This document shows positions 16,801-39,538 of a stretch of DNA of 64,000 nt, in pieces. The notes under the pieces were generated by a model. It was not told where the DNA came from, did not search any database, and saw only the letters and a program-made list of their open reading frames with translations. Within the stretch, counting starts at the first letter, position 1; each line of letters begins with the position of its first letter. The position numbers and the translations under genes are program-made. The stretch is from assembly GCA_000165345.1 (NCBI GenBank), contig CM000433.1:160001-224000 (forward strand), given 5' to 3'.

Positions 16801-19800
16801 CAATATTATATTTTTAAGGAGATTGGTGGTAAGAATGATTTAAATAACCAAACTTACTTTTCAGAGAAATTTGATATATATAAAGGGTTCAATTCAAATA
16901 ATGAATTTGAAAAAACTAAAAAAGCTATATTGGAATTGAGAGATTTGAAGAAAGACAAGTATTCTTCCAAAATTTCCAAACTAGGGCAAAAGAACGATAA
17001 TTATCTGGAAATCAATCCTTCAGAGTTGGTTGACTTTTCAGACAATAAAAATCTGACATCAACAGTTCTTGATGTACTAATTGATACGATCAGAAACTTT
17101 AGTGAAAATAGCAATAATAAACTAGAAAAGAAGCTTTTGCTTTTAGAACTTGTTAAATCATTAAAACAACAAAGACTTAGCATCGATGGTTTATTTAAAG
17201 TCGAAGAAAACCCCGATAAGTTCACTCATGACGACTCTGGGATACTTTTCCCAAAAGATGTGTCTACCAATAACTCAAATAAAGATTCAGATCCTTCAAA
17301 AGACTTTCATTCAAACCATGATGCTATTTTATACGATGGTAGTTGGCTCTCTATTGGTAAAATGGAAGAAAGTATTGAAGACAAATTCGATGACGAAGAA
17401 AATGAGTTTAATAACCATGGTGATTTCTTTGCATATCCAAATGAACTAACAAGACGTAAATTAGAGTCTTTGATAGGCAATAAACTTAATACTAAGAAAG
17501 ATTCTCTATTAAAAATCATGGATGCAATTTCAAAGATTGGATTAGGAGATATTACATCAAAGTTAGGTAACTTATTAAAAGGATCTTCTTCTAAGTTCCC
17601 TTTTCCATATAATGGGTTTTCTTCTATGGTTTTAACAGGAGCAAAAGGGTCAAGAGTTAATTATAATATGATTTGTGTTATGCTAGGTCAGCAAGAACTT
17701 GAAGGAAGAAGGGTTCCAATTATGCCAAGTATGAAGACTTTACCATCTTTTGCTACTTATGATTTGGGTTCTAGAGCAGGAGGTCTGATTACAGATCGTT
17801 ACTTGGACGGTCTTCATGCTCAAGAATTCTTCTTTCACTGTATGTCTGGAAGAGAAGGTTTAGTTGATACTGCAGTCAAAACCGCACGTTCTGGATATTT
17901 GCAAAGATGTATATTAAAAGGATTGGAAAGTATGATTGTTAATTATGACGGCACTGTTAGAAGTGAAGACGATACAATTGTTCAATTTATATATGGTGAT
18001 GATGGAATCGATGTCTCTAAATCAAGTTATTTGTCCAAATTGGAGGATCTAGTTAGAAATAAAACTTTGTTGGAAAGAGATGTGAAATTTGAAGAATCTA
18101 TGGGAAATAAATTTTTGAATAATTCTTTTGAGAAGGTATTCAAATATGAAAATAGGCAAAATTTGTTTAAGACGTGTCTAAACCAAAATATCTTATCAGA
18201 TGAAAAATCTTTCAAAAAAGTAAAAAAATCAGTAGAAAGGGATTGTTTTGATAACTTAAATATATCAGAGGATAATAATAAGACCAATGCAATTGATGTT
18301 GAAAATGTTTCATCTACATCTTTAAATGAAATGACTGTCAATTCATTACTACCTACAATCTTAAATGGAGGATCAGTTTCAGAATTATTCCTTAATAGCT
18401 TATCTGAGACAAATATCCAAAAGCTTACTAGAATTTCAAGTGATTCAAAATATTATTCAAACAACAATTATTCTTTCAAAGGAAAAAGAAAATCAAGAAA
18501 CTCGTTAGTTAATGATAAATATAGTGCTGAAGAATACGAATCCATGTTAAACATGGAGAAATTACTTCGTCTAAAGTATATGAAAACTCAAATTTCTCCA
18601 GGAGAAGCTGTTGGTTGTCTTGCTGCTCAATCTATTGGAGAACCGGCCACACAAATGACTCTTAATACTTTTCACTTGGCAGGTCACGGTGCTGCTAACG
18701 TTACTTTGGGTATTCCAAGACTTAAAGAATTACTTCAAACAGGAGGAGATTCAAAAACTCCATACATTTTTATCCCATTATTGAAAGATATTAATTCAAA
18801 GAAAGATAAATCATCCAAATTTGCTGATGAAGAAAATGACAATAAAGATTTTATTAATTATGCAGAAAAGGTTTTGGACTGTTTCAAATCAATCCCATTG
18901 TCAGATATTATTGAAAATGTTGGAGTTGAAAGTTCAATAGTATATGATGAAGATGGAAAATTTAAATCATCCCACAAAAAATCTGCATATTGTTGGAATT
19001 ACGAAATTTCTATCCAATTTTCAGATTTGGAAGTATTTTGTCAATCTTTACCTCATTACAATATGTCATCTTTAATGAATTTGACTCTTTCAAAATGTAT
19101 TAAACCTTTTTTGAGAAATGTAAGTTTAATTCTGGGAGATATTTTAAATAATTATTATTGGAAATTATTGTTATTTATTATAATTCGGAGGCATTCATTA
19201 ATTTTTTTTAAATTAAACTCTAAGTCAATTCTTTTAACTAATTTTACTCAATTAACCCTAATAAGGCTTAATTCTTCGAGATATTAGTTATAAGATTTCT
19301 TTGGTTTTAAAATATAATTTAAATTCATTATTAATGATGAAATAATATTAAAACTTTCGTTCTTCTGTAAAGTTGTCAAATTTCTAATTTTGGAGATTTA
19401 TTAACAGAATGATGGAGAAAACTATACTATTTCTGAAATATGATATAATTAAATTATATTTTAATAATTTTTTTTTCAGAAAAAATGAATTTTGATGGAA
19501 ATCTCCTTGTAATTAATAATATTTTAATTTCCAAAAATATTAAAATAAAATATCTCTATTGAAATTAATTAATAACTTTAATTTTTAGGTAAATAACATG
19601 TACACAATTTCATCGATAAGAAGTAGCAAATTTTCCAACCAAGAAAATGATGAGACAGACGAATTTGTTTCAAAATACGTCTTGGGACACAATAGTGATC
19701 GAAACATTGGGATTTTCAAAGGTGCTTTGAACTCAATGATTCAAAAAGGTAACTTTTCTTTTGGAGGAGGAGGAGGAGGAGGAGAAGGAGGAGAATTAGG

Positions 19801-21022
19801 ACAATATGAAGATGATTTTGATGGAGGGTCTCGGCCTGATCGCAAAAAAGAACCAAAGAGTGAGGATGACAGTGGAAATAATACTAAAAAGGAAGAAATT
19901 GATGATGTAGATAATGATATGAATAATGAAATGGATGGAGATGATAAAGATAAAAACGATGATGATGATAATTCATCGGTAGAATCTTCATCATCAACTT
20001 CCGAGGAGGAAAATGGTAAAGATGATAGTGATGAAGAAACTGAAATGAATAATGGAAAATTTACTGAAGAAGCTAATGAGAATGATGAATCTGGAAGTGA
20101 AGAAGATGGAGATTTAGTTAGGAGGAGTTTAAGTGCAAGGAATAGTTTTACTGGTGAAAATCTAATGGAGAATGATTCAAAAATACCATGCATAAACTTA
20201 AAAATCTTGACTAAAGATGTATTAAAACATGTCATTGATTTTAACATTGATAGAAAAACCAATATTTTGAGTATTAAATTGGGGTGGCCGGTTATAAGAT
20301 GCCCACATTATATTGATTTCTTACCTGTCTTAAAAAATTGTATTTTAAAGACAAATATCCAGTCAATTTCATGTTTGAAAAATGCAAGAATTACTAGGAA
20401 CCAGAAAGAAACTTCAGACAAAAGTTTGTCTCAGTTTGAAGTTACCGTGGAGGGAACCAATGTAGGGCATATTTTTAAGATTTCGCCACGTTACATTAAT
20501 CACGATAAAATTAGATTCAATGATATTCAAACAGTATATAAATATTATGGTGTTGAAGCTGCCAGGCATTGTATTATCAACGAGTTAAGGAACGTCTTTT
20601 CAGTGTATGGAATTAATGTTGATTATAGACATTTGACTTTGATTAGTGATTCAATTACAGCAAGTGGAAAATTAAGAGTATTCAATAGAATGGGAACAAT
20701 TTCATACAATGTTTCACCATTCTTGCAGATGTCATTTGAAACTAGTATGAAATTTTTGACAGAAGCATGCTTGAGAGGCGCTTTAGATAATTTAAAAAGC
20801 CCAGCAAGCTCAATTTCAGTTGGGAAAATGGTTAGTGTTGGTACAGGGATTTCTCGTACATATACTAATTTCTACCAAAATAGTTTTGGTGGAAAAAGAA
20901 AAGATAAAGATGGATCCATTCAAAAAAAGACCAAGGATAAAAAAGAAAAGAATGATGATGAGACAAAGAAAGGTAAAAAAACAAGTAAGAAGGAAATAGA
21001 AAACTATTTTAAGTTTCTTTAA
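13870..21022 (+). CDS. RPA1: DNA-directed RNA polymerase I largest subunit (RPA1/A190), two exons
   Basis: Exon 1 is 13870..19119. Its N-terminal clamp has a zinc ribbon (CGTCGS..CPGHIGHIELELPVFHP), then RQPTLHRPSIMAH and the catalytic NADFDGDEMNLH. A GTAAGT donor sits at 19120 (phase 0). The intron runs 19120..19588 (469 nt, acceptor tttttAG). Exon 2 is 19589..21022 and carries the conserved C-terminal domain (YGVEAARHCIINELRNVFSVYGINVDYRHLTLISD..SPFLQMSFETS). The start MNSAPICSDIHSASFDLLRASEVKKLS parallels the A190 N-terminus. The total of ~2228 aa includes lineage-specific Ser/Asp- and Gly-rich insertions. Alternative acceptor choices within ~30 nt cannot be excluded. Confidence 0.85.
19328..19442 (+). 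ncRNA. Candidate box C/D snoRNA inside the RPA1 intron (speculative)
   Basis: AATGATGA (C box) at 19333..19340, an internal ATGATGG (C'-like) at 19409..19415, and CTGA (D box) at 19433..19436. This gives ~105 nt from C to D, which is a typical size. The terminal stem is weak. It lies in the one unusually long (469 nt) intron. Confidence 0.2.
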
Positions 21023-25370: not shown

Positions 25371-27080
25371 TTGAATAATAAATATTTCAAAATGGCTCCT
25401 TCGCTCAGAAAAAAACCAATTGAATTAAAAGGCATTGAATTATTAAGAAACCCCTTCTATAATAAGGGGTTAAGTTTCACTATGGAGGAAAGAAAGGAAT
25501 ACGGACTTGAAGGTTTGCTTCCTGCGAAGTATGAGACTATTGATGAGCAAGTTTCCAGACTATGGACTGCAATAAACAAAATTGACTCAAATATTGGCAA
25601 GTATACTTTTCTTGAGAATATCAGAAGTTCATCCTTTATTCTTTTCCACTCTCTTCTTGATAAATATTTTAAAGATTTAACTCCTTTGGTATACACGCCT
25701 ACTGTTGGTGAAGGTTGTATCGAATTTTCAAGGAATCCAACCATTAGGAATTGGCTAGGTTCTGGCCTTTACTTGAATAAATCTCATAAAGGACGCATTT
25801 ATGAAATTTTAAAAGACTTTAAAAGCGATGATATAGAAATCATTGTATTAACTGATGGTGGGAGAATTTTGGGATTAGGCGACCTTGGTCTTAATGGTAT
25901 GGGTATTCCAATGGGTAAATTATCATTATATATTACATTGGGTGGAATAGACCCTTCTAAAGTATTACCAATTTCCTTAGATATCGGTACAAATACTAAT
26001 GATATTTTAAGCGATAAATATTATTTAGGTATTTGCGAAAAAAGGATAGATAATGATGAATACTTTCCATTGATGGATGAGATCACTAAAGCAATTTTCA
26101 AAAGGTGGCCAAACACCGTTCTTCAATGGGAAGACCTTACAACTTCAAGAGCAATTGATATTTTGGATATCTATCAAGATAAATTTCGTTGTTTTAATGA
26201 TGATATCCAAGGTACTGCAAGTATTGTTTTAGCAGGTTTAGTTAGCTCACTTAAAATTGCCGGGAAGAATTTCGAAGATCAAAGAATTCTTATTTGTGGA
26301 GCTGGTTCTGCATCAATTGGTATTGTTAATTTAATTATTAAATCTATGGAAATTAAGGGAATACCTTATCAGTCTGCATTGGAGAAATTTTGGCTTGTTG
26401 ATTCTAAAGGATTAATAACCAATTCAAGAGATTTAAATAGTTTAGACAAATTCAAAGTGCCTTTTATCAGGAAAAATATTGACAGGAGTATTACTGACTT
26501 GGTAGAAATTGTTGAATTGGTTAAACCAACAATTTTATTGGGTGTTTCTGGCCAAGGGGGAATTTTTAATGAACAAGTAATCAAGACTATGGCATTAAAT
26601 GTTGAAAGACCAATTGTTTTCGCTCTAAGCAACCCTACCAATAAAGCAGAGTGTAATGCCTCTGACGCGTATAAATGGACGAATGGTAAAGTTATTTTTG
26701 CTAGTGGGAGTCCAATGAACCCTATCAAGGCAATTGATGGCACCGAGTTTATTCCATCTCAGTGTAACAATATGTATGTGTTTCCTGGAATTGGTCTTGC
26801 TGCTCAAATCGGCCAGCTTTCTCACATTCCCGATATTTGCTTTATTGAAGCGGCATACTCAGTTTCTAACTTTATTCATATAGATTCCAATTCTAATATT
26901 TTATTCCCACCGCTTACTGCTTCTGTTGGAAGAGAAATTTCTGCATCAATTGCAGCTGATATTATTCTTAGAGCAAAAGAAATGAACATCATCAATAAGA
27001 GTGTATGCCCAGATTTACCTTTGGATAATAGGGAAAACATCCTCAATTATATTAAAGATAGAATGTGGCTTCCTTATTAA
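25371..27080 (+). CDS. NAD(P)-dependent malic enzyme
   Basis: Malic-enzyme signatures FNDDIQGTASIVLAGL and GAGSASIGI (Rossmann), plus the N-terminal LEGLLPAKYETIDEQ block. The likely start is the ATG at 25392 (MAPSLRKK), which has a better context than 25371. Confidence 0.85.
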   Translation: MNNKYFKMAPSLRKKPIELKGIELLRNPFYNKGLSFTMEERKEYGLEGLLPAKYETIDEQVSRLWTAINKIDSNIGKYTFLENIRSSSFILFHSLLDKYFKDLTPLVYTPTVGEGCIEFSRNPTIRNWLGSGLYLNKSHKGRIYEILKDFKSDDIEIIVLTDGGRILGLGDLGLNGMGIPMGKLSLYITLGGIDPSKVLPISLDIGTNTNDILSDKYYLGICEKRIDNDEYFPLMDEITKAIFKRWPNTVLQWEDLTTSRAIDILDIYQDKFRCFNDDIQGTASIVLAGLVSSLKIAGKNFEDQRILICGAGSASIGIVNLIIKSMEIKGIPYQSALEKFWLVDSKGLITNSRDLNSLDKFKVPFIRKNIDRSITDLVEIVELVKPTILLGVSGQGGIFNEQVIKTMALNVERPIVFALSNPTNKAECNASDAYKWTNGKVIFASGSPMNPIKAIDGTEFIPSQCNNMYVFPGIGLAAQIGQLSHIPDICFIEAAYSVSNFIHIDSNSNILFPPLTASVGREISASIAADIILRAKEMNIINKSVCPDLPLDNRENILNYIKDRMWLPY

Positions 27081-27287: not shown

Positions 27288-29692
27288 CTAAAGTTTTAGT
27301 TGGAAATTAGGAATAATGGATAATTTTTTCTTCTGAAGTTGAACTTCAGAGTAGTAATTTTTCAACTTACTAATTTCTATGCCATAAGCAAATATTCTCT
27401 CATTAATGCTAGGGCTAAACTCAAGAATTACTCCAACATCATCAAGTTGAGTTTGAAAGGATACTATTGGAACCATATCTCGGCCAATCCCTGCCCCTGC
27501 TAAAACGAAAGATCTTCCTAATCTTCCTGCTCCAGCTCTAGTAACAATTGTTGGGTCATCTTTCCCAGGAAATGTTGAACTTAATAATAGTTGCCACCCA
27601 TTTCCCCAATTACCTAAAAAATCAGTTGTTCTTGTCGAAAAATTTCTTACAACCGTAAATTGATATCCTCTTAATCCAAATGCAAAACCATATGATTTAT
27701 TTTTAACATTAGTTGCAACATCAACAAATAAAGTTTTGAAGGATGCAATTGCCTGAATAATTATTAGAATTTTGATAGCAAACAATAAACCATTAAACTT
27801 ACCTCTGTTGAAAATTGCTGTCCCACAATTACCTCTTTTTGTGAGAAACTATGTCTCAAAGATAGGCCTATTTCTCTAACAGAAATATGTTGTGCATATT
27901 CTCTTAAACCAAAAGAAACCAATGTTGATGAAATAAAGTATCTAGCTTGTAAATCAACTCCCCATGCATTAATTGTTGAAGATCTATCAACTCTTACTCC
28001 GTATAAACCTTGGGTATATCCAAAAGTTAAAAATCTGCCAAGTTGGGCTAACCTTTTTCCTGATAAATACGATAAAATTGCCCTATCGTAGGAAAACCCC
28101 AGAGTAGCAGCTTCTTCAACGTAAGATTCTCCTAAAAAAGCAAAAGCAAAATTGGTTCCAACTCTCACAAAGTTACCATTATTTCCGACAAGTGGTGCAT
28201 ATCTTATCAACCAATCTCTCCATAAAATGTTTTGGAAAACTGAATGTATCATTGGTTCGCTAGGCAATCTTCTACTATACAAGTTTGAATCAGATTTTGA
28301 CACAAATTGGTCATTTTCTCCATTACCAAGACTTTCAGGAAAATTTTTTTGTAAGTTTTGGTTATTCAAACTTTCAGCATTTTCCTTATTGAATAACAAA
28401 TATGATTTATTACCTGATCCTCCACTGATACTTTCTCTTCCAATTTTCGGAGTGTTCAAAATTGATTTACCAGTGATTTCAGAACGCAAACCAACAGTAT
28501 TAGGTTGAATGTTAATAACCTCAGTTTGATCTAGTCTTGAATTAGGATCAAAACTCCATTGCCCCTCCATAAGCATTCTTCTTGTTGGTGTATTAAAATA
28601 ATCACTCCATTTCCTCTCTGACCACTCTTTATGGTTTGTTTTGATCTCTTCCCTTTCAACTTTATTGTTAAATTCCCTGTTAAAGTCCGTCCATCTCTTT
28701 TTTGGTTCTGAATTAATATATAAATTTTTATTTGTATTGGAGTCATCTAATTTAGGAGGCAAACATCCTTGAGATTCTAATGTTTGCTTTTGTCTGTATA
28801 ACTTAATTGCACATCTCATTGTTATGTTTTGATTGGAAATATTTGGAAGAAGGCTCCATTTCTCATCTGATAGTGAAAATATTAGAAGAGTTTCAATATT
28901 CACAAGTATACTTAACTTGACTCCTTGCACAGGACACCCGTTTTTTACTATGATATTGAAATAATCTATAATAGACATTCTTTCAAATTCATTTTCAATT
29001 GTTCTCATCCCGGTTTTTTCATTGGTATTAACTGATTGATTATCATTTTTCTGAGTTAAATTTGTTTTGTATTCACAATAGCTTGGCCAAAGATAAATTT
29101 TTCTAATATAATCTGTATTTTCTCCATTATCTTTCACATCCAATTTATTGAAAAAAATATGTTCATCTTCATCATTTGGGACATTTATATTATTTTTTAT
29201 TCCAGCTGTGAAGATTGATGATAGCAACATACCAAACATGGAAGAGTCTCTTAAATCATTATCTATTAAATATTTACCATCTCCGACTATTTTTCCTTGT
29301 AATTTTCCGGATTCAGACCTGTACAAAAGTCTTCCCCTTACGGATTTATACCATCTAGCATTTGAATAACATTGAGAATGAAAGTCATCAAATTCTTCAG
29401 AATCGTCACTTATTTTGGATATACAAACTGATATTATTGATAATGCTGAAGGAAGGTCAATTTCATCATTCAGATTATTCTTAGACCTTGAGTCCCAGTC
29501 AACTGTTCTTACATTTCTTACGTTTGAAATATTCTTGTTTGTGCTAATTCCATTTCTATTTTTAACTTGATCTTTCTCTTCTATCCACAATCTTTTATCA
29601 AATGGATCTATTTTATATACTCTATACCTATATTTATCTGTAATAAATTCATATACAAATTCGCAGTCTTTGTTTTTTGGAAAGTTTAACAT
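27288..29692 (-). CDS. 784-aa protein: unknown ~450-aa N-terminal region plus a C-terminal beta-strand-rich domain resembling an Omp85/Sam50-type beta-barrel; two exons
   Basis: Exon 1 is 29692..27803, with a GTAAGT donor at 27802. The 50-nt intron 27753..27802 ends at acceptor ttattcAG. Exon 2 is 27752..27288. Both junctions are phase 0, which joins ORFs 27764..29692 and 27288..27785. The C-terminal ~330 aa show an alternating aromatic/Gly pattern (NFAFAFLGESYV, FLTFGYTQGLYGV, YFISSTLVSFGL) and FGLRGYQF, which resembles the Omp85 loop-6 (V/I)RG(F/Y) motif. No POTRA domain was recognised. Confidence 0.45.
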
Positions 29693-29768: not shown

Positions 29769-30407
29769 TTATTTTTTGGAATTGTTATTTTTTCCCTCAA
29801 ACTTACCACTTATTTCGTAAAATGAATTCGAAATTACAGCCTTTCCGCTGCATGCAATATTTAAACCTTTAGAATAGAGTTGCCCATTATAATTTTGCTC
29901 AAAAAAATTGTCTAGAAAATCCTCGGTAATAACTGGAACCTCCCTACCATTAATTGATTTAATTTTTTCATTCAATATCTTAGAAACATTTTTAGTAATT
30001 GGTATACCCACAATTACACCATCTTCACTACACCATGCTGAAGGTGGTACTTCCTTTGGTATTCCGAGCTTTTTCAACCAATATTTGCTAAATTTATGTA
30101 GTTCATTTGTACTAGACCCTCTTGTACGATTTACAGTATTCTTTTCTTTGGTTTTAAATTTCTTCTCGAAATCATTTTTTTCATAAATTCTATTTGCTTG
30201 AATGTTTTCAGCGAATAAATTTAGTTCTCCCGAATTTGGTATATTTTTATTAAGTTCTTGAAAGTTTTTATAATTGAATAATGTACCAAAGTCTCTTGTT
30301 GGAGTAAAATTGTTGTTATTCGATAGACTTTTGCCAGATTTTATGGAAAAAATTATTAAATTAAAATACAAAATTAAATGTTTTTTACATTTCAAAAATA
30401 ATTTCAT
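29769..30407 (-). CDS. Small secreted protein (N-terminal signal peptide), unknown function
   Basis: MKLFLKCKKHLILYFNLIIFSIKSG is a signal-peptide-like N-terminus. It is followed by 185 aa with no recognisable domain but coding-like composition. Confidence 0.4.
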   Translation of the reverse strand: MKLFLKCKKHLILYFNLIIFSIKSGKSLSNNNNFTPTRDFGTLFNYKNFQELNKNIPNSGELNLFAENIQANRIYEKNDFEKKFKTKEKNTVNRTRGSSTNELHKFSKYWLKKLGIPKEVPPSAWCSEDGVIVGIPITKNVSKILNEKIKSINGREVPVITEDFLDNFFEQNYNGQLYSKGLNIACSGKAVISNSFYEISGKFEGKNNNSKK

Positions 30408-30689: not shown

Positions 30690-33600
30690 CTAATCTTTAA
30701 AGTAATTTTTCTTCTTCTCTTTCTTCATTCTTGTTTCCAATTCATTTATATTCTAAAGAATTGTTATTTGATATATTTTTTCCTATAGTTGCAAAAACTT
30801 ACCGTCCACGGAATGTGCACCCCTAAAAATACCCAAGTTGATAATATTCCTCCAACTAGTGGAAATATTTTTGGATAGATAAAAAAATGAGCCTAGACAA
30901 ATAATAAAAATGCGATTTCAATGAATTAATAACTAACCTCATCTTGTGGTAATTCAATGAAAATTCGGAATCTTTTTGAACCAACAATAAATGATCGAAC
31001 ATCATTGGGATCAGCTGTAGAAAAATGAATAGGGAATCCAGTAAATGTTGACATAGGAAATGTTGGGAAATTAATGGCTTGCCAATCGTAATAAAGCTGT
31101 TCCATTCTGTAATACCAGTTCCATTTTGAAATCTGGTCATTAATGTACTTTAAGGGTCTATTCAATTTCCTCCAAGGGGGAGGTTCAATATCTTCATCCT
31201 CATCAATATCTTGTGATTCAGAATTAGCTTGAGTATTATTTTTTGATTTTTCGTCCTCTCTTGTGGTAGTTTTACTTTCTGATTCTTGCTCCGGAATATT
31301 TTCTTTTTGAGAATCTTTATTTGCCTTATCCTTTTCCTTTTCTGGTTTTTTCCAATTAGAGATTTTTGCCTTCATCCCAATTTTAGATAAATTTACCCCT
31401 TCGTCCGGCAATTCTGGTTCAATTTCTAAATTATCTGCCATTTCATCATCGACTAGAGCATTCCAATACTTCATGTCATTTTCTATCTTTTCTAAATCTT
31501 TTTCGTTTTCTAATAATTTTTTTTCCTCAAGGTCAATTATTTCATTCTCCATATTTTGTTTAATGTCAGTTTCCAAATTATTTTTCTTTGAAGGAATTTC
31601 TCCTAAGAAAAATGATGAGCTATTATTTTCATTACTTTTCGATTTTGAAATTATATTTGCACCCGAATGAATATTTGGGGGAATATTCGAAACATTGAAT
31701 TTTTGGTCTCCTTTCAGAGATTTAGTTAAAGCTTGGGTCTTATTTTCATTAGTTTGAATTGTATCTGAGTTATCGAAAAACGAATGATAAGAACTCATTT
31801 TATTTGGGTTTGCTGACTTATTTACAGGATTTTTGACAAATTGTTGGGCATTATTTCCAAAGTTGTTCATATTAATGTTCTGATTATTTAAGTTATTTGT
31901 TGCAAGTTGTGAATTTTGATCATACTGTAATGAAGGGAACTCTGATTTAAAGTCCCTTCCTACTGCATTTTGATTGTTCGAATTATAAGAAGCATTTATT
32001 GCCATATTTGTATAACATTGGGGAACTAAGTTATCATTGGATTTATTATGATTAGGATTACTTTCCGCTTTATTTTCAAGATTTCCATAGAAATTAGCAT
32101 TAAAGAAGTCAACTTGAGGATCTTGACCAGAATAATTACCCTCGCTTCCTAGAGTTATTTTTCTTGTAACAACCATATCCTCAAAGTTTGACTTTTTCTT
32201 CATCTTAAGGATCTTTTTCTGTTCCTTTTCTTGTTTTTCTTTCATTTCTTTTTCTTCTTTAATGATCATTTCCTTAGTCTTCAAAGCTGACCATGCTGTG
32301 TGGTTGTCTGGAGGACCAGGATCATACAAAGGATCTAAAGATAATTTGAATTCCAATAAAGTCAAATAAGCATTAATTCTTTCTTCAAGTTCTGAGCTTC
32401 TATCGAATAATGTATCCTTTCCCAATTTTTGTCTGTTTAATACAATATTTTCTTCAACTGAAACTGATATTGACTCTTCTAATTTTTCAACAGCTCTTCC
32501 TTGCAGCGGTGGTTCTATGATCAAATCCTGGAAGATATTTTCTGGTTTTGATCCACAGAATGTTCTCCATTTATAGGGATTATTTAAATCATATGTGATC
32601 AAAGCAGGGTGGTGATTGCCCAGATTACCCCAAACTTGCCTATTATTAAAAACCAATTCAATTGTACTATAGGGTACATATGAAATAAGTTCTGGAGTCA
32701 AAAATCTTTTATCTGGAATAATGGGTATATTCTTAATGTATTCTGTGATAACTTTTTTAATAATATCTAAACTAGTATTTTGGAACTTAATTTTGTCAGA
32801 TTTTCGATTGCCAATATCTTCTTCATCTTCTTCAGCAGGATTATTGTATTCTACCTCTTTTGGATCAATTTTTATGTCTGGAACCAAAAATTCACCCCAA
32901 ATATCTATACCCATGTTTTCATTGGCATGCGTTTCAACATATTTAACTTGCCCTGTTTGTTTCAACCATTCAAACCATTGCTGCAAATATAGCCCGTTGT
33001 AGTATTCTCTTTCCTTCTCAAACATTTCGACCCTTGAGCTATCGTCAGGAACTTCTACATCATTATTATCATTATTTACTGACGGCATGACCTCTGCATT
33101 TTGTTGAAATGGATTTCTCATTGAATAATACGGATCTATTCCATACCTACAAGGAAGTACATATCTTTGTTTATTTGTAACTTCCCAAAATTGAACATGA
33201 CCAAATCTGTGTCTAGTCATGACCCACATATGTTCTAGCGTCCCATTTTCGATTGTACCTTTACATACATATGCATCGAATCCGATCCCTAATAAACAAC
33301 TACAAAACATTAATACATGATCTCCAATACTTCCCTTTTTTGATAATAAGAACAAATTAGGAGGAGTAAGTTCTGGAATCTTCCCTGGTGGTTTAATTTG
33401 ACTTTCCAATGTTATATACATAAAATTGTTAATCCAATGCAACAAACTTCCTTCATTTGATATCAAATTTGGAACTGCAATAGGAGATATATATGAACAT
33501 AATGGAAAAATCTCTTCAGTTTGTGGATGTCTCTGTAATACATTGAAATTTCTTTTATCAGGCGCAGATGAAAACCATTGCTTATAAATCCCTTTCCATT

Positions 33601-35759
33601 TGTGAAAATCACGGTTCCATCTATTTCCTAGTTGTTTCCAAATATTGCTGATTGCTTTAGTTGATGGTGGAGCAGGAATCACAACATCAGCAGGGAATGG
33701 TGGAATAAAGAACATCTCAAAATGAATACTTGGTTTTATAACACTCTTCCCAAATCCTTTTGATTGTAGTAACATATTCATATTGAGTACTAAAGTATTA
33801 TAGGGAAGTGTATATAAAGTATTGTTGACAAAAATATTATCATCGTTTTCAGCTCTGTCACCTTCTTGATCAAAATTTGGTTTCCCATCAGCTCTTCTAG
33901 ATCGTTTATCTATTAACCCTTCAGCTAAACATCTAAAATCTTCTTTTCCAAGGGTGTAAATTTTATTTAGATTGACTTCTCCTGATCCCAATAAGATGGA
34001 TGATGTATCACTTCTATTCCAAACTTCAATCTTTAATGGGCCTTTACAGAGTAAGTCGATCGGTAAACATTTTCTCCTAAAGCTTGGAATCAAAAGTTCT
34101 CTTTGATCCAAAATTCTTACAGGAAAGTACAAATTTTGGTTATATACTGGCCTCCTTGTTTTTTCTCTGACTGAAGATGTATTAACAACTCCATCCCAAG
34201 TAACTTTTACTATAGGGTCAGAAGTACCCGTTACTCCATCTGCAGCAGCTAAATTATCACACTTGAAGAGCCTAAAGACCAAATACCTTTCATTTATATT
34301 TAACTGAGAAACCAATGCTGCTCCTGAAGCAACTTGAGACGGCCTACTTCTAATATTTTCATTAGGTTGGCCTGTGCTCTTTGAATAGCAAAAAACATTA
34401 CCAATGATTTCCCCTCCAACAATCTTGTAAATATCGATTGTTATTCTCTTAATTATCGTTTTAACTAAGGGATAACTTTCTACAGATGCTAAAGAAATCA
34501 TTGCAGCTCCTATTACAGAAGGTCCAAATTTTAAATAAGCTAACACTTCTACTATTATATATGCATTTCTTAACTGACATCTCGTTCCAGTAAATACAAA
34601 CTCGCAAACTGACTTCCAATAACCTCCAGTAGAATATGGAGTAATCATAGTTTCTGCATTGATAAATATTAATGTTTAAAGAAATTTATTACATTTCAAC
34701 TTACTCCTAGAAGACATTCCTGAAGTTATATCATTATTTAAAGGTACCTTTAGTCTCAAAAATTTGGGTGCTTTTTTAATTTCAATAGGAAGTTTCTTAT
34801 TAGGAATAAAACTCCAATTTTCCAAGGAAATATCAAAATCAAAAATTTCTTGTAACTGTAAAGTTACTCTGCTTCTATGCACTTCAAAACTTTTTTGGTT
34901 AAGATCTTTACGAGGTTTTCCATCCTTTCCCAAAGGTGCAGGAAGATGCTTTTTAAACATTAAATGAGTTTCTGGATCGTTTTCCAGTACATCTTTGAGT
35001 GTAAGTTTGACTGAAGCAAGCAGTTGGTTGAAAGTAAAGGTTCCAATTGTCCAGAGCTTAATGGATATTTGAAACATCTCTAATTCAGAATACGATATAT
35101 ATAAGATCTTTTTTGGCCAAACGATAATCGGGAAAGTTAATACTTTTACTTCTCCTGGTTTTAATAAAGTCGCAGCTGTATAAACCATCATTCTCTTTAA
35201 AGTTCCTTCGTAGTTTCTCTCTGGATTAACATGCCCAAATTCAATAACATAGAAGAATTCTTGTGGTGTATTTTCTAGATTTTCACTAGTATGAATAAAA
35301 AAAGAAGCTTCCCATACTCTGAGTTTCTTCATATAATCAACCTCGAATTCAAATCGTTTTTGCAGAAATCTGGATTCATCAACTTTTTGTTGCTCAACAT
35401 CATATTCATCAAAATCGTCCTCCGCAGCAGCATCAAAAGCTTCTGAATCTTCGCGTTCATCATCTGAGTCATGTTTTTTTTCCATTTCAATATCTTGTCC
35501 CATTGGTTTACCTATTTTTTTTTGACTTCTGTAACCCTTCAAATCGAATAAAGGAACTTCAAATCTACTTTGGTCTAAAAGATAAAATATAATTGATCTA
35601 TTTCAACTAATTCAAAGTAAACTTACCAATCACATTTTCTTCAAATTCCACCTCACCTTTGAAGTCTAACCTCCAAATCTCGCCTTCATCAAATCCTGCA
35701 TTTTTAAGCACTTCCTTATTTATTTCTTTTTTGTTTTTCTTATTCTTCTTTTTAACCAT
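30690..35759 (-). CDS. Large multi-exon protein (~1600 aa): C2 domain, then transglutaminase-like (TGL) fold, then long disordered N/S-rich region, then coiled coil, then predicted C-terminal TM helix. It is CC2D2A/CEP76-like only in its C2+TGL part
   Basis: Exons derived by hand: 35759..35627 (ATG, MVKKKNKKNKKEINK...), intron 35575..35626, exon 34705..35574, intron 34654..34704, exon 30938..34653, intron 30893..30937 (donor GAG|GTTAGT), exon 30803..30892 (encodes the hydrophobic AHFFIYPKIFPLVGGILSTWVFLGVHIPWT), intron 30753..30802, exon 30690..30752 (..KKEKKKNYFKD*). All phases are consistent. The C2 domain is LVFRLFKCDNLAAADGVTGTSDPIVKVTWDG..NQNLYFPV. The TGL-like core is GDHVLMFCSCLLGIGFDAYVCKG...EHMWVMT. 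The two 3'-most exons are inferred. If they are wrong, the CDS ends at 30926 (...PQDEVSY*). Confidence 0.5.
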
Positions 35760-36225: not shown

Positions 36226-37872
36226 ATGCAAAGTAAAGTCATTTTTAGGATCTTGGTATTGATCATTTCGGTGATTGGATCCTTATACTCAATAATTCAA
36301 TTAATGCTAAAGGAGCTATCAAGTAACAAAAATATTCAAGAGGTTAGTCATTCAAGGAGGCTAATAAGTGAACCTTACAGTGAAAGTATTAATGAACAAA
36401 ATGATCAAGATTGGAAAGAACTAAAGCTAATAATTCCAAATCATTCTCAAATTAACCAGCAGGAAAAAAATGGTAATTTGATTGAGTTTAAAGTTTATAT
36501 ATACTCAGCATATTATGATTGGAGAATAGATAGGATACGAATAAATTCACTTATCCCATCGAATTTTTATGATCGAATAGAAATGGAATGTGCAATAATC
36601 TTGGACAAAAATATTTACACAGGAACTATTAAAAAAGTGATTCATAAGGAGCACCATAATAAAGAATATGTATCATCGACTTTACTCTGCGAAATTGCAA
36701 AAAATGAAATTAAATTTGAGGATATTTCAAGGAAAGTTTTGATAACAATTTTGGAAAATGGAAACAGCACAAATAAATCAGAAATATGGATAACTCTAAA
36801 AAAAATTCCAAAAAATAGCTCTAATAATCATGAGCTGACTGTTTGTGTGAGACCTTGGTGGGGAGAGCCAATAAAGAATGGAAACTTGGGAAATAAACAA
36901 AAATTTAACAATTCAGGGTTAATGCTTGAATTTATTAATTCATATTTATTCTTAGGAGCAAATAAATTTTATTTATATCAAAATTACTTGGACATTGACG
37001 AAGATGTAAGAAATATAATAAATTATTATTCTAATATCAAAAATGTTTTGGAAATTATTCCATACTCATTACCAATAATTCCATTTAAACAAGTTTGGGA
37101 TTTCGCACAAACAACAATGATACAGGACTGCCTACTAAGAAATATTGGAAAAACAAAATACTTGTTATTCGTAGATACCGATGAATTTGTATTTCCAAAC
37201 TTGAAAAATTATAACTTAATGGATTTTTTAAATTTATTAGAAGCCAACAATCCTTATTATAAAAACAAAGTCGGGGCAATGTGGATTCCAATGTATTTTC
37301 ATTTTTTAGAGTGGGAATCTGATAAAAATAATTTGAAGAAATATTCAACAATTGAGAAAAAAATTAAGAAAAAGATGGCAAATATTGAGTTTGTTCTATA
37401 TCGTAAAACATGTAGAATGTTAAGTTCTGGAACAAAAAAAAGTGACAAGACGAGAAGAAAAGTTATTATTAGACCTGAAAGAGTTTTGTATATGGGTATA
37501 CATGAAACAGAAGAGATGCTAAGCAAAAAATTTCATTTCATTAGAGCTCCTGTAATTAATGTGGGTGGAGGAAACGAACTAAGTATATATTTACATCATT
37601 ATAGAAAAGCAAAAGGTATTGTAAACAATGATCCCAAACAAAGAGAACTTGTGAATATGTATTTAGAAAATGTTTGTTCAGATAAGCTGTTAGATTCAGG
37701 GGGAGATTCCATTCAAGATGGAGTAATTGTCGACAATACTGTTTGGGAGATATTTGGAACACACTTATACCAGATAATTTTTGAGCATATTAAAGAAATC
37801 CAAGATATGTACACAAATAAGGAAATAATTAATGGAAATAAAAATTTAAGTGTTGAAGAATTACATAATTAA
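36226..37872 (+). CDS. Type II membrane glycosyltransferase, GT92/DUF23-like
   Basis: N-terminal signal anchor ILVLIISVIGSLYSII. The luminal domain has CVRPWWGEP..MIQDCLLRNIGKTKYLLFVDTDEFVFP, matching the DUF23/GT92 pattern (DCL.R....Y....D.DEF..P, a DxD-type motif). Confidence 0.55.
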   Translation: MQSKVIFRILVLIISVIGSLYSIIQLMLKELSSNKNIQEVSHSRRLISEPYSESINEQNDQDWKELKLIIPNHSQINQQEKNGNLIEFKVYIYSAYYDWRIDRIRINSLIPSNFYDRIEMECAIILDKNIYTGTIKKVIHKEHHNKEYVSSTLLCEIAKNEIKFEDISRKVLITILENGNSTNKSEIWITLKKIPKNSSNNHELTVCVRPWWGEPIKNGNLGNKQKFNNSGLMLEFINSYLFLGANKFYLYQNYLDIDEDVRNIINYYSNIKNVLEIIPYSLPIIPFKQVWDFAQTTMIQDCLLRNIGKTKYLLFVDTDEFVFPNLKNYNLMDFLNLLEANNPYYKNKVGAMWIPMYFHFLEWESDKNNLKKYSTIEKKIKKKMANIEFVLYRKTCRMLSSGTKKSDKTRRKVIIRPERVLYMGIHETEEMLSKKFHFIRAPVINVGGGNELSIYLHHYRKAKGIVNNDPKQRELVNMYLENVCSDKLLDSGGDSIQDGVIVDNTVWEIFGTHLYQIIFEHIKEIQDMYTNKEIINGNKNLSVEELHN

Positions 37873-37924: not shown

Positions 37925-39538
37925 TTAATTTGGTTTTTCTAGTTCTGAAACATTATGTGGATGGTTCAATAAGATGTGCCTAAAAAAGGAAAAGAAGCAA
38001 TCAATAGCTAACAGAATGATTACAATCCAAGTCAATCGGTTAGCATGTGTAGTTTGATACTCTTCGGTAATAACTTTCAAGAGTTCTTGCATCATTACTA
38101 TTCGTCTGTTAAGGACTTGAAGCCTCTCGGAAATTTCCAAGTATTCTTGGAGATTCCTCCAAACTGAATGAAATTTATAATTATGCCAAAAAATTTCAGG
38201 TATATCAAGAAAATCCTCAACTAAATTAACTGAAATTTGATAAGAATACAATTCAGAAAATCTTTTCCTTACTTGAGGAACCTCTACCTTAAATTCCTCT
38301 TCAATAACGCTAGAAGCTCCAACCTGGGCAAGTTTTAGTGGCAAATATTTAATGTTTTCAACACAATCCTCAATGAAGTCTTCAAACAAAGAAAGTCTTA
38401 TACTCTGACCAATTGCAAGGGAGGCTGCAAGTTTTTCCTCTGAGCTTCTAGTTTTCAAAGTAACAATATCAGAAATTACTTTCCGGTTATTTCTATAAAA
38501 TCTGCTGTATGCAAAATTGCCATAATTAAAAAGCATAGTGTAGTACTGACAATTTTTGGAGTATTTTCCAACAAACCCCCCAAATGAATATAGAGAGAGG
38601 AATGTAATAATATCTTCAAACCTTTCATCTGAATGCTTTGGAGAGTTCAAATGCGTTAGAGAGTCTGATGTAACTTCTTCATTGCTCCAAGCGACGATTA
38701 CTCCATTTTTAAATATAAAAATAGGGTTTTCAAGCCTTTTCCAATAATTTTCATCGTTCGAATAGCACTCCCCTCGTTCTATTATTTCGTCATTGTAAAT
38801 ATCTTCAAGTTTAGACGGAATTACGGGTTTTGATGGATTTTCATTCTGAAATAAAGAATATTCTTCATAACTGGAGTATTGTTTTGAATATCTGGAATCT
38901 AATAATTTTGCTCTATCTTCGATATTAGAGAATTTTTTTTCAGACCCTTTCCAATTGGTCATTTCATCACAACCAACCATGTGGTTTTTAGGATTATCCT
39001 CAATTGTACGCCTTCTACCAGACCTTCCGAGTATCATTTTAATTGACGGATATATACCAGCAGGAAAAAGAACCTTTCCTAGTCGCCCTTGAGTTGCCCA
39101 GGTAATTTCAATTTTATCGAAATATGGGTTTAAATCAAAGACTAATATACTTTTTTCCTTATCCACGTACCAGTGACAATAGTTATGTTTGTCAAGGGCG
39201 GATCTAATACTCTCTAAATTGTATCCTTCACACAAACAAAACCCTCGAATTACATTAAAGCTTTCTGATAACTCTGGGTATTGAAATTTAGGAGATTTAC
39301 TCTCTATTGGATTTATTGAGCCATTTCTATTTGAAAATTCGGATGCTTCTGAACTAAATTTAGTGCTACGCCATTTAGAAGATCTCCATCCCCTTCTTTC
39401 TGCTCTACTAGTAAAGTTTGTTCTATTTGATGCTATATTTGAATAGTTTGTTCTCTCATTGGGTGAACAATTATTATTAAATTGGCTACCTGCTATAATT
39501 TTGCCTTCTAAGTAATTATTTACTTTAGGTGTATCCAT
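37925..39538 (-). CDS. DUF155 protein (RMD1/RMND1 / Sad1-interacting factor 2 family), C-terminal TM helix
   Basis: NPIFIFKNGVIVAWSNEEV (cf. the DUF155 vFvFryGvvVfWnf block), YSRFYRNNRKVISDIVTLK...LQVLNRRIVMMQELLKVITEEY and the terminal TM WIVIILLAIDCFFSFF are typical of the RMD1/RMND1 family. Confidence 0.5.
   Translation of the reverse strand: MDTPKVNNYLEGKIIAGSQFNNNCSPNERTNYSNIASNRTNFTSRAERRGWRSSKWRSTKFSSEASEFSNRNGSINPIESKSPKFQYPELSESFNVIRGFCLCEGYNLESIRSALDKHNYCHWYVDKEKSILVFDLNPYFDKIEITWATQGRLGKVLFPAGIYPSIKMILGRSGRRRTIEDNPKNHMVGCDEMTNWKGSEKKFSNIEDRAKLLDSRYSKQYSSYEEYSLFQNENPSKPVIPSKLEDIYNDEIIERGECYSNDENYWKRLENPIFIFKNGVIVAWSNEEVTSDSLTHLNSPKHSDERFEDIITFLSLYSFGGFVGKYSKNCQYYTMLFNYGNFAYSRFYRNNRKVISDIVTLKTRSSEEKLAASLAIGQSIRLSLFEDFIEDCVENIKYLPLKLAQVGASSVIEEEFKVEVPQVRKRFSELYSYQISVNLVEDFLDIPEIFWHNYKFHSVWRNLQEYLEISERLQVLNRRIVMMQELLKVITEEYQTTHANRLTWIVIILLAIDCFFSFFRHILLNHPHNVSELEKPN

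What the first reader, a model, noticed from the sequence alone, without database searches (positions are those of the whole stretch)
30690..35759. Novel-architecture C2 + transglutaminase-like protein with predicted C-terminal TM exon
The hand-built five-exon model encodes a C2 domain followed by a TGL-like core (G..FCSCLLGIGFDAYVCKG ... HMWV). This pairing is otherwise characteristic of the ciliary/centrosomal CC2D2A/CEP76 family. Unlike those proteins, this one continues into ~600 aa of N/S-rich disorder and a coiled coil, and appears to end in a separately spliced transmembrane helix. A CC2D2A-like module in an apicomplexan-type genome, possibly membrane-anchored, is unexpected, especially if the organism lacks flagellated stages.
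Basis: partly seen in the sequence, partly recalled or inferred. Interest (0 to 1): 0.6.

Follow-up and report, generated by a model that had tools for sequence, protein, structure and literature searches.

The report
Known Cryptosporidium CEP76-like gene, not membrane-anchored
This is the already annotated Cryptosporidium parvum gene cgd5_780, a large soluble CEP76-like protein with C2 domains and an inactive transglutaminase-like domain, and its supposed C-terminal membrane helix is really the last beta-hairpin of a conserved globular domain.

Summary
The five-exon gene model is real. Splicing at four GT..AG introns of 45-52 nt gives a 1623-aa protein. It matches the public C. parvum protein CPHLJ_5g780 (= cgd5_780) at 1622 of 1624 positions. 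Pfam confirms a C2 domain and a CEP76-type transglutaminase-like (TGL) domain.

Two parts of the interpretation fail.

1. The architecture is not new. Pfam also finds the CEP76 C-terminal domain at the very end. The same full domain order recurs in Babesia, Theileria, Eimeria, Hepatocystis (annotated 'CEP76, putative'), chromerids, a gregarine and dinoflagellates. cgd5_780 was already listed as the Cryptosporidium CEP76 homologue in 2015. By sequence it sits on the CEP76 side (55-60 bits to fish CEP76) and gives no hit to a bona fide CC2D2A.

2. The 'TM exon' is not a membrane helix. It aligns with the last two strands of soluble fish CEP76, and AlphaFold2 models it as a beta-hairpin at pLDDT 94-97.

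The 'disorder' is two lineage-specific inserts (about 130 and 340-370 aa) that split a conserved TGL plus C-terminal unit. The catalytic cysteine is replaced by isoleucine, so the protein is probably a non-enzymatic scaffold. Its function in these parasites is untested. Interest is low.

The parts
35627..35759 (-). Exon 1 (ATG at 35759; 133 nt; lysine-rich N-terminus)
   Evidence: Sequence read and splice build. The N-terminus is conserved in C. felis and C. serpentis proteins.
35575..35626 (-). Intron 1 (52 nt, GTAAGT..TAG)
   Evidence: Read-through hits a stop after 7 codons.
34705..35574 (-). Exon 2 (870 nt). It encodes an acidic linker and most of N1, a divergent C2-like beta-sandwich at residues ~105-335.
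   Evidence: N1 is conserved in Babesia and in 30+ family members. hhalign of N1 against the family C2 block gives probability 91%, E 1.1e-6.
34654..34704 (-). Intron 2 (51 nt, GTAAGT..CAG)
30938..34653 (-). Exon 3 (3716 nt). It holds N2, C2, the pre-TGL linker, the TGL core, insert 1, the post-TGL block, insert 2 and the first part of the C-terminal domain.
33857..34291 (-). PKC-type C2 domain (residues ~456-600)
   Evidence: Pfam PF00168, 45 bits. AF2 pLDDT ~90-97. Foldseek and profile hits to ferlin, synaptotagmin and Munc13 C2 domains.
33137..33376 (-). TGL (CEP76 peptidase-like) core, residues ~761-840. The catalytic Cys position is Ile; the His and the acidic residue are kept.
   Evidence: Pfam PF24656, 67 bits. 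Alignment with fish CEP76: GDCEDH against GSIGDH. AF2 pLDDT >90. Profile hit to Tetrahymena DRC7 ('lobo-like') chain 8th8_H, E 1.7e-6.
32732..33136 (-). Insert 1 (residues ~841-975), acidic and Asn-rich, inside the TGL domain
   Evidence: Not conserved outside Cryptosporidium. AF2 pLDDT 38-63. Composition. In other family members the Pfam TGL match is split at the same place.
32282..32731 (-). Post-TGL conserved block (residues ~976-1125): the end of the TGL domain plus the first half of the CEP76-type C-terminal domain
   Evidence: Invariant PY..E..FN..W.N..HP motif across the family and in fish CEP76. The sub-HMM hits fish CEP76 at 438-496. AF2 pLDDT 89-97.
31172..32281 (-). Insert 2 (residues ~1126-1495): Asn/Lys/Glu/Ser-rich low complexity with two long helices, splitting the C-terminal domain
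   Evidence: Composition N 15%, K 13%, E 11%, S 9%. Absent or only 40-60 aa in compact orthologues. AF2 pLDDT ~30, helices at P0001 1122-1158 and 1371-1409.
30938..31171 (-). C-terminal domain, the part encoded in exon 3 (residues ~1496-1573; WNWYY...GFPIHFSTADP motif)
   Evidence: Pfam CEP76_C. Conserved in Babesia, Hepatocystis and chromerids. AF2 pLDDT 93-96.
30893..30937 (-). Intron 3 (45 nt, GTTAGT..TAG). Read-through gives ...PQDEVSY* and loses the last conserved strands.
30803..30892 (-). Exon 4 (90 nt, AHFFIYPKIFPLVGGILSTWVFLGVHIPWT): the terminal beta-hairpin of the CEP76-type C-terminal domain.
   Evidence: Inside Pfam CEP76_C positions 74-138. Aligns with fish CEP76 RLAVRVRVFVYPENACAVWIMFACKY. 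AF2 strands at P0001 1575-1585 and 1591-1602, pLDDT 94-97.
30753..30802 (-). Intron 4 (50 nt, GTAAGT..TAG)
30690..30752 (-). Exon 5 (NINELETRMKKEKKKNYFKD + TAG): a short basic C-terminal helix
   Evidence: A similar tail occurs in C. felis, C. serpentis and Hepatocystis. AF2 models a helix with pLDDT falling from 88 to 47.

Best explanation
The locus is cgd5_780 of Cryptosporidium parvum chromosome 5. It encodes a 1623-aa soluble protein of the CEP76 branch of the C2 + TGL superfamily.

Anatomy (shown):
- An acidic N-terminus.
- N1, a divergent C2-like beta-sandwich.
- N2, a second beta-rich domain.
- A PKC-type C2 domain.
- A helical linker.
- A TGL domain.
- A CEP76-type C-terminal alpha+beta domain.

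The TGL and C-terminal domains form one conserved unit. In Cryptosporidium this unit is interrupted by two lineage-specific low-complexity inserts. The last two short exons encode the final beta-hairpin and a short basic helix of that unit, not a transmembrane anchor.

Mechanism (inferred): the catalytic cysteine is replaced by isoleucine, so the TGL module most likely binds a peptide or protein partner rather than cleaving it. The C2 domain or domains would supply peripheral, reversible attachment to a membrane or protein surface. The protein would then act as a non-enzymatic scaffold. By homology with CEP76, the likeliest site is the spindle-pole/MTOC apparatus during nuclear division. The localisation and the partner are inferred, not shown.
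For: Gene model and identity:
- The splice build agrees with the public annotation at 1622/1624 positions.

Domains:
- Pfam finds C2, CEPT76_peptidase and CEP76_C, all above their curated cut-offs.
- All 37 scanned family members carry the same three domains.
- Sub-domain HMMs show the conserved order N1-N2-C2-preTGL-TGL-post-Cterm in about 50 proteins. In compact members the gap between the post-TGL block and the C-terminal domain is only 40-60 aa.
- hhalign of N1 against the C2 block gives probability 91%.

Distribution:
- Members occur in Babesia, Theileria, Eimeria, Hepatocystis ('centrosomal protein CEP76, putative'), Vitrella, Chromera, Digyalum and dinoflagellates.

Placement:
- phmmer of Cp against fish CEP76 gives 55-60 bits (E ~1e-17).
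- Cp against a bona fide CC2D2A (P0164) gives no hit.
- CEP76 against CC2D2A gives ~30 bits.

Structure and active site:
- The AF2 model has pTM 0.70, with 530 residues at pLDDT >= 90.
- The exon-4 peptide forms two strands at pLDDT 94-97.
- The catalytic Cys of fish CEP76 aligns with Ile/Leu/Val across the family.

Literature:
- PMC4348508 Table 1 lists cgd5_780 as the CEP76 hit.
- PMC3495828 describes the shared C-terminal alpha+beta extension that stacks on the TGL core. It also reports that most CEP76-clade TGL domains are inactive.
Against: - No localisation, interaction or knockout data exist for this gene or its Plasmodium orthologue in the searchable literature.
- The CEP76-specific N-terminal domain and the CEP76-type C2 are not detected. 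One-to-one orthology with animal CEP76 is therefore unproven.
- Toxoplasma appears to have a much closer CEP76: TGME49_226610, e-59 to human, against e-12 for cgd5_780. A review gives it no Plasmodium counterpart. This suggests the family here is a paralogue whose function may differ from CEP76.
- As far as I recall, Cryptosporidium has no flagellum and no canonical centrioles. A centriole-duplication role cannot simply be transferred.
- The C2 loop-3 motif in C. parvum (VWNRSD) departs from the family consensus VWDxD. Ca2+-dependent lipid binding is therefore uncertain.
Confidence: 0.8

Rival explanations
1. One reading: a CC2D2A-like C2 + TGL module with a new architecture, anchored in a membrane by a separately spliced C-terminal TM helix.
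For: - The exon-4 peptide is the most hydrophobic 19-mer in the protein (KD 1.83).
- It lies 20-50 residues from the C-terminus and is followed by a basic tail, as in tail-anchored proteins.
Against: - The segment lies inside the Pfam CEP76_C match.
- It aligns with the C-terminus of soluble fish CEP76.
- It carries a conserved Pro and Gly-Gly turn in its middle.
- AF2 models it as a beta-hairpin at pLDDT 94-97.
- The buried TGL helix also exceeds the usual KD 1.6 threshold (1.66), so hydrophobicity alone does not discriminate.
- There is no phmmer hit to a bona fide CC2D2A, and CC2D2AN-C2 and DUF5523 are absent in all 37 members.
Confidence: 0.04
2. It is the direct one-to-one orthologue of animal CEP76. 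It has a lineage-specific N-terminal extension and inserts. It does the CEP76 job, licensing and limiting duplication of the spindle-pole organiser.
For: - Best non-family similarity is to CEP76.
- A crude neighbour-joining tree without bootstrap places the myzozoan family as sister to animal-type CEP76.
- Database annotation in Hepatocystis/Plasmodium is 'CEP76, putative'.
- It is listed as the CEP76 homologue in PMC4348508.
- The P. berghei gene is transcribed in dividing stages (blood stages, ookinetes, oocysts) and falls in sporozoites.
Against: - CEP76_N and CEP76-C2 are missing.
- Toxoplasma TGME49_226610 is far closer to human CEP76 (e-59), and a review gives it no Plasmodium counterpart. 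This points to a separate canonical CEP76 in coccidia.
- Vitrella carries three family-related genes, so duplication has occurred in this lineage.
- CP110, the partner I recall for human CEP76, has no hit in Toxoplasma, Plasmodium or Cryptosporidium in the PMC4348508 table.
Confidence: 0.3
3. It is an active thiol peptidase or transglutaminase acting on cytoskeletal substrates such as tubulin modifications.
For: - The TGL fold is confidently predicted.
- The His and the acidic residue of the triad are retained.
- PMC3495828 proposes such activity for active ciliary TGL proteins.
Against: - The nucleophile position is Ile in C. parvum and Ile/Leu/Val across the family.
- PMC3495828 reports most CEP76-clade TGL domains as inactive.
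Confidence: 0.03

Closest known systems
CEP76 (centrosomal protein of 76 kDa; Pfam CEP76_N + CEP76-C2 + CEPT76_peptidase + CEP76_C)
   Same: - It has a TGL domain of the CEP76 type and the CEP76 C-terminal domain, both above the Pfam cut-offs.
[quoted passage not shown]
- The terminal beta-hairpin is homologous.
- Best outside-family sequence similarity is to CEP76, at 55-60 bits.
   Different: - It is 2.5 times longer.
- It lacks CEP76_N, and its C2 matches the generic PF00168 model rather than CEP76-C2.
- It has one or two extra N-terminal beta-sandwich domains.
- Two low-complexity inserts split the TGL/C-terminal unit.
- The catalytic Cys present in fish CEP76 is Ile here.
CC2D2A / MKS6 (ciliary transition-zone protein)
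   Same: - Similar overall size.
- Several C2-type domains followed by an inactive TGL domain and the shared C-terminal extension.
   Different: - There is no detectable pairwise similarity to a bona fide CC2D2A (P0164).
- CC2D2AN-C2 (PF15625) and DUF5523 (PF17661) are absent.
- No N-terminal coiled coil was detected; no coiled-coil predictor was run.
DRC7 / CCDC135 / FAP50 (nexin-dynein regulatory complex subunit)
   Same: It is the only relative with solved structures. The family profile hits the Tetrahymena 'lobo-like' chain 8th8_H (E 1.7e-6). Foldseek also hits chains in axonemal 96-nm repeat entries.
   Different: The similarity is distant and confined to the TGL region. DRC7 is axonemal and has a different domain context (PMC3495828).
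Plasmodium 'centrosomal protein CEP76, putative' (PF3D7_0603800 / PBANKA_0102600) and piroplasm 'C2 domain-containing protein'
   Same: The Hepatocystis protein carrying the same 'CEP76, putative' name matches across the whole core in one stretch (E 4e-228). It also has a long insert before the C-terminal domain. I link it to the two named Plasmodium genes only through that shared name and the PMC4348508 table.
   Different: The inserts have different sequence and length. None of these proteins has been characterised functionally.

Membership tests
CEP76 family | CEP76-type TGL/peptidase-like domain (PF24656) | tested here: met
   67.2 bits against a 27.8 cut-off, residues 768-835, plus a second stretch.
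CEP76 family | CEP76 C-terminal domain (PF24652) | tested here: met
   26.1 bits against a 22.5 cut-off. P0001 residues 1536-1600 match profile positions 74-138. By alignment with fish CEP76, the first half lies before insert 2.
CEP76 family | CEP76-specific C2 domain (PF15627) | tested here: not met
   No hit at E <= 1 in Cp or in any of 37 family members. The generic C2 model PF00168 hits instead. One distant relative (P0086) hits both models on the same region.
CEP76 family | CEP76 N-terminal domain (PF24654) | tested here: not met
   Absent in Cp and in 37 members. Present in fish CEP76 P0157.
CEP76 family | Closer to CEP76 than to the sister clades by sequence | tested here: met
   phmmer gives 55-60 bits to fish CEP76, no hit to CC2D2A P0164, and CEP76 against CC2D2A ~30 bits.
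CEP76 family | One-to-one orthology with animal CEP76 | tested here: inconclusive
   The neighbour-joining tree is crude and has no bootstrap.
CEP76 family | Centrosomal localisation and restraint of centriole reduplication | not testable with these tools
   No experimental data were found for the apicomplexan genes.
CC2D2A / MKS6 | CC2D2AN-C2 (PF15625) and DUF5523 (PF17661) | tested here: not met
   Absent in Cp and in 37 members. Present in P0164.
CC2D2A / MKS6 | Sequence similarity to a bona fide CC2D2A | tested here: not met
   No phmmer hit at E <= 10 in either direction.
Catalytically active TGL / papain-like thiol peptidases | Cys-His-Asp/Glu catalytic triad | tested here: not met
   The Cys position is Ile (GSIGDH against fish GDCEDH). 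The His (EHMWV) and the acidic residue (FWEV) are retained.
Tail-anchored / single-pass membrane proteins | A C-terminal hydrophobic alpha-helix of about 20 residues that is not part of a globular domain | tested here: not met
   The segment is hydrophobic (KD 1.83). However, it lies within CEP76_C, is homologous to strands of soluble CEP76, and is modelled as a beta-hairpin at pLDDT 94-97. No dedicated TM predictor was available.
C2 domain (PKC/synaptotagmin type) | C2 beta-sandwich recognised by profile and by fold | tested here: met
   PF00168, 45 bits. Foldseek top hits are C2 domains with target TM-scores of 0.7-0.8. Profile hits to ferlins and synaptotagmins.
C2 domain (PKC/synaptotagmin type) | Complete set of Ca2+-coordinating aspartates | tested here: inconclusive
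   Loop 1 aspartates are present (AAADG..SDP). Loop 3 reads VWNRSD against the family consensus VWDxD. This was judged by eye, without a structural alignment.

The most novel reading that the evidence does not exclude
The cgd5_780 family is not the CEP76 orthologue. It is a separate, ancient multi-C2 + inactive-TGL paralogue, with distant relatives in a jakobid and a metamonad. On this reading, Plasmodium, piroplasms and Cryptosporidium kept it after losing canonical CEP76. It would have been kept because it works at a non-ciliary membrane-cytoskeleton interface, such as the nuclear-envelope-embedded spindle pole or the apical secretion apparatus. That loss is my inference and was not tested here.
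Probability: 0.3. Interest if true: 0.45.

Novelty: already known. Interest (0 to 1): 0.15.

Why it matters
There is little new here. The gene is annotated, its C2/TGL content is in Pfam, and its link to CEP76 was published in 2015.

Three things are useful:
- The finding needs a correction. The protein is not membrane-anchored, and the last two small exons are needed to complete a conserved globular domain.
- Several public Cryptosporidium models (C. bovis, C. canis) miss those exons.
- This CEP76-like family persists in Cryptosporidium and piroplasms, which as far as I recall lack flagella. It remains completely uncharacterised, so it is a reasonable tagging target for anyone studying apicomplexan spindle poles.

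Tried and rejected
They returned almost only Cryptosporidium proteins. The exhaustive HMMER search was what revealed the family. One search did by luck return one bona fide CC2D2A (P0164).
- The first AlphaFold2 run used a 5-sequence alignment of residues 105-1130. It gave mean pLDDT 41.8 and was discarded. As a result N1 and N2 have no reliable model.
- The afdb50 fold library was unavailable, so no structural ranking of CEP76 against CC2D2A models was possible.
- phmmer of the full protein against PDB sequences gave only noise.
- hhalign of N2 against the C2 block was not significant.
- Literature searches for PF3D7_0603800 and PBANKA_0102600 gave no functional data.
- I considered CC2D2A orthology because of size and multiple C2 domains. 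I rejected it.
- I considered a tail anchor and rejected it.


Full report
**1. What is in the sequence**

The window is AT-rich (about 28-35% GC) and carries long ORFs on both strands. On the minus strand between 35759 and 30690 there are three collinear ORFs of 50, 288 and 1240 aa.

Reading the sequence and splicing it gives five exons:
- 35759-35627
- 35574-34705
- 34653-30938
- 30892-30803
- 30752-30690

They are joined through four short GT..AG introns of 52, 51, 45 and 50 nt.

A homologue search returned the public protein 'hypothetical protein CPHLJ_5g780 [Cryptosporidium parvum]'. It is 1624 aa and matches at 1622 of 1624 positions, with one substitution and one single-residue indel. 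The window is therefore C. parvum chromosome 5, the gene is cgd5_780, and the 'hand-built' model is the existing annotation.

The short last exons are supported by homology:
- The exon-4 and exon-5 peptides are conserved in C. felis, C. serpentis and Hepatocystis, and the exon-4 peptide also in Babesia.
- Read-through of intron 3 would end the protein at ...PQDEVSY* and delete conserved residues.

**2. Domains**

Pfam finds three families above their curated cut-offs:
- C2 (PF00168, residues 458-522, 45 bits)
- the CEP76 peptidase-like/TGL domain (PF24656, 768-835, 67 bits)
- CEP76_C (PF24652). P0001 residues 1536-1600 match profile positions 74-138 of 140, at 26.1 bits against a 22.5 cut-off.

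The very end of the protein, including the 'TM exon', is the second half of the C-terminal domain that CEP76-type proteins share. Zhang and Aravind (PMC3495828) described this as a C-terminal alpha+beta extension likely to stack on the TGL core in CEP76, CC2D2A and CCDC135.

**3. The family**

An exhaustive HMMER search used a profile of residues 105-1130 from four Cryptosporidium species and Babesia. It found 856 proteins at E <= 1e-3 and 99 at E <= 1e-30.

Sub-domain HMMs show that about 50 of the listed proteins share the whole order N1 - N2 - C2 - preTGL - TGL - post - Cterm. In compact members (1050-1300 aa) the C-terminal domain follows the post-TGL block after only 40-60 residues. In C. 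parvum a 370-residue insert sits there, rich in Asn, Lys, Glu and Ser. A second insert of about 130 residues sits inside the TGL domain. In other members the Pfam TGL match is split at the same place.

Named members are:
- Babesia bigemina, B. ovata, B. duncani and Theileria equi
- Eimeria intestinalis
- Hepatocystis ('centrosomal protein CEP76, putative')
- Vitrella (two close copies plus one distant) and Chromera
- the gregarine Digyalum
- the dinoflagellates Gymnodinium and Heterocapsa

More distant relatives occur in the jakobid Andalucia and the metamonad Anaeramoeba. All 37 members scanned carry C2 + CEPT76_peptidase + CEP76_C. None carries CEP76-C2, CEP76_N, CC2D2AN-C2 or DUF5523. hhalign of the N1 block against the family's C2 block gives probability 91% (E 1e-6). 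N1 is therefore probably a divergent C2 domain. N2 is unresolved.

**4. CEP76 or CC2D2A?**

The searches happened to supply one bona fide example of each:
- a fish CEP76 (P0157: CEP76_N, CEP76-C2, peptidase and CEP76_C, all strong)
- a CC2D2A (P0164: DUF5523 + CC2D2AN-C2 + peptidase + CEP76_C)

The phmmer results were:
- C. parvum protein against fish CEP76: 55-60 bits (E about 1e-17)
- C. parvum protein against CC2D2A: no hit at E <= 10
- CEP76 against CC2D2A: about 30 bits
- every family member scores higher to CEP76 than to CC2D2A

A crude neighbour-joining tree, without bootstrap, places the myzozoan family next to animal-type CEP76. The protein is therefore CEP76-like, not CC2D2A-like.

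Whether it is the orthologue or an old paralogue is open:
- Suvorova et al. 2015 (PMC4348508, Table 1) list TGME49_226610 (e-59), PF3D7_0603800 (e-13) and cgd5_780 (e-12) as CEP76 hits.
- A later review lists TGME49_226610 with no Plasmodium counterpart (PMC8705618).
- The Eimeria member of the present family scores only 60 bits to fish CEP76.

Together these suggest that coccidia have both a canonical CEP76 and this long form. I could not obtain the Toxoplasma sequences to test that.

**5. The 'TM helix'**

The exon-4 peptide AHFFIYPKIFPLVGGILSTWVFLGVHIPWT is indeed the most hydrophobic 19-mer in the protein (Kyte-Doolittle 1.83). The buried TGL helix also passes the usual threshold (1.66).

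In the family alignment the peptide matches the C-terminal RLAVRVRVFVYPENACAVWIMFACKY of fish CEP76, a soluble protein. Many members, including all the apicomplexan ones shown, have a Pro and a Gly-Gly turn in the middle.

A second AlphaFold2 run used residues 430-1624 with a 60-sequence alignment. It gave pTM 0.70, with 530 residues at pLDDT >= 90. It models the following:
- two beta-strands at P0001 1575-1585 and 1591-1602, which is exactly exon 4, at pLDDT 94-97
- a third strand at 1537-1546 listed among the confidently modelled elements of the same domain
- a short basic helix after the hairpin, encoded by exon 5

There is no support for a membrane anchor. No dedicated TM predictor was available.

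**6. Fold and active site**

Foldseek against the PDB returns C2 domains (target TM-scores of 0.7-0.8 for many of the best). It also returns chains of axonemal 96-nm repeat and N-DRC structures. A family profile hits the Tetrahymena 'coiled-coil lobo-like' (DRC7) chain 8th8_H at E 1.7e-6 over the TGL region. This fits the three-clade TGL picture of PMC3495828.

In the TGL helix the fish CEP76 motif GDCEDH aligns with GSIGDH in C. parvum. The nucleophile is Ile here, and Ile, Leu or Val in the other close family members shown. The His (EHMWV) and the acidic residue (FWEV) are kept. The domain is therefore predicted to be non-catalytic, as PMC3495828 reports for most of the CEP76 clade.

**7. 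How it most likely works**

Shown:
- a soluble multi-domain protein with a PKC-type C2 domain (plus a probable second, divergent C2 in N1)
- an inactive TGL domain locked to a CEP76-type C-terminal domain
- two disordered inserts

Inferred:
- it is a scaffold in which the C2 domain or domains give peripheral attachment and the TGL/C-terminal unit binds a partner peptide
- by homology with CEP76, its likeliest site of action is the spindle-pole organiser during nuclear division

The only related expression data concern P. berghei 'cep76', which is transcribed in blood stages, ookinetes and oocysts and drops in sporozoites (bioRxiv 10.1101/2022.03.06.483110). No localisation or knockout data were found.

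The family is retained in Cryptosporidium and piroplasms. From general knowledge, not tested here, these lineages lack flagella. That argues the function is not ciliary. PMC4348508 also lists Cryptosporidium hits for SAS-6, SAS-4 and CEP120, so this retention is not exceptional.

**8. Verdict**

The two claims that made it interesting, a novel architecture and a membrane anchor, do not survive. The residual novelty is the possibility that this is a distinct, uncharacterised paralogue of CEP76 conserved across Myzozoa.

Noticed in passing
window 13870-19287 (+) and 19598-21022 (+): An RNA polymerase largest-subunit gene is split across two ORFs. Rpb1 domain 5 profile positions 1-149 end the first ORF and positions 150-259 lie in the second. 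This implies an intron or frame break of about 310 nt at 19288-19597.
   Followed up: no
P0003 (C. canis), P0006 (C. bovis), P0002 (C. ubiquitum), P0005 (C. ryanae), P0009 (Babesia sp. Xinjiang): Public gene models of the orthologues are inconsistent. The C. bovis and C. canis models lose the conserved terminal hairpin, apparently because the last introns were missed. Three models are much too long (1819-2608 aa), apparently fused to neighbouring genes. The Babesia model fuses NSF/sec18, dihydroorotate dehydrogenase and the CEP76-like gene.
   Followed up: partly
window about 33950-33990 (-), residues ~545-557: C2 loop 3 reads VWNRSD in C. parvum, where the family consensus is VWDxD. Two of the usual Ca2+-coordinating aspartates may therefore be lost in this species.
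   Followed up: no
window 27764-29692 (-) and 29769-30407 (-): The two ORFs immediately downstream (642 aa and 212 aa) have no Pfam match at E <= 0.01. The 212-aa one starts with a hydrophobic, signal-peptide-like N-terminus.
   Followed up: no
window 36226-37872 (+), 37925-39538 (-), 25371-27080 (+), 47481-49028 (+): Neighbouring genes are ordinary housekeeping-type genes. They are a GT92 glycosyltransferase transcribed divergently from cgd5_780, an RMND1/DUF155 protein, a malic enzyme, and a calcium-dependent protein kinase with four EF hands. No tRNA genes occur in the window.
   Followed up: partly
P0017, P0018, P0092 (Vitrella brassicaformis): The free-living chromerid Vitrella has three genes of this superfamily branch, two close to cgd5_780 and one distant. 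This shows duplication within the lineage and is relevant to the orthologue-versus-paralogue question.
   Followed up: partly
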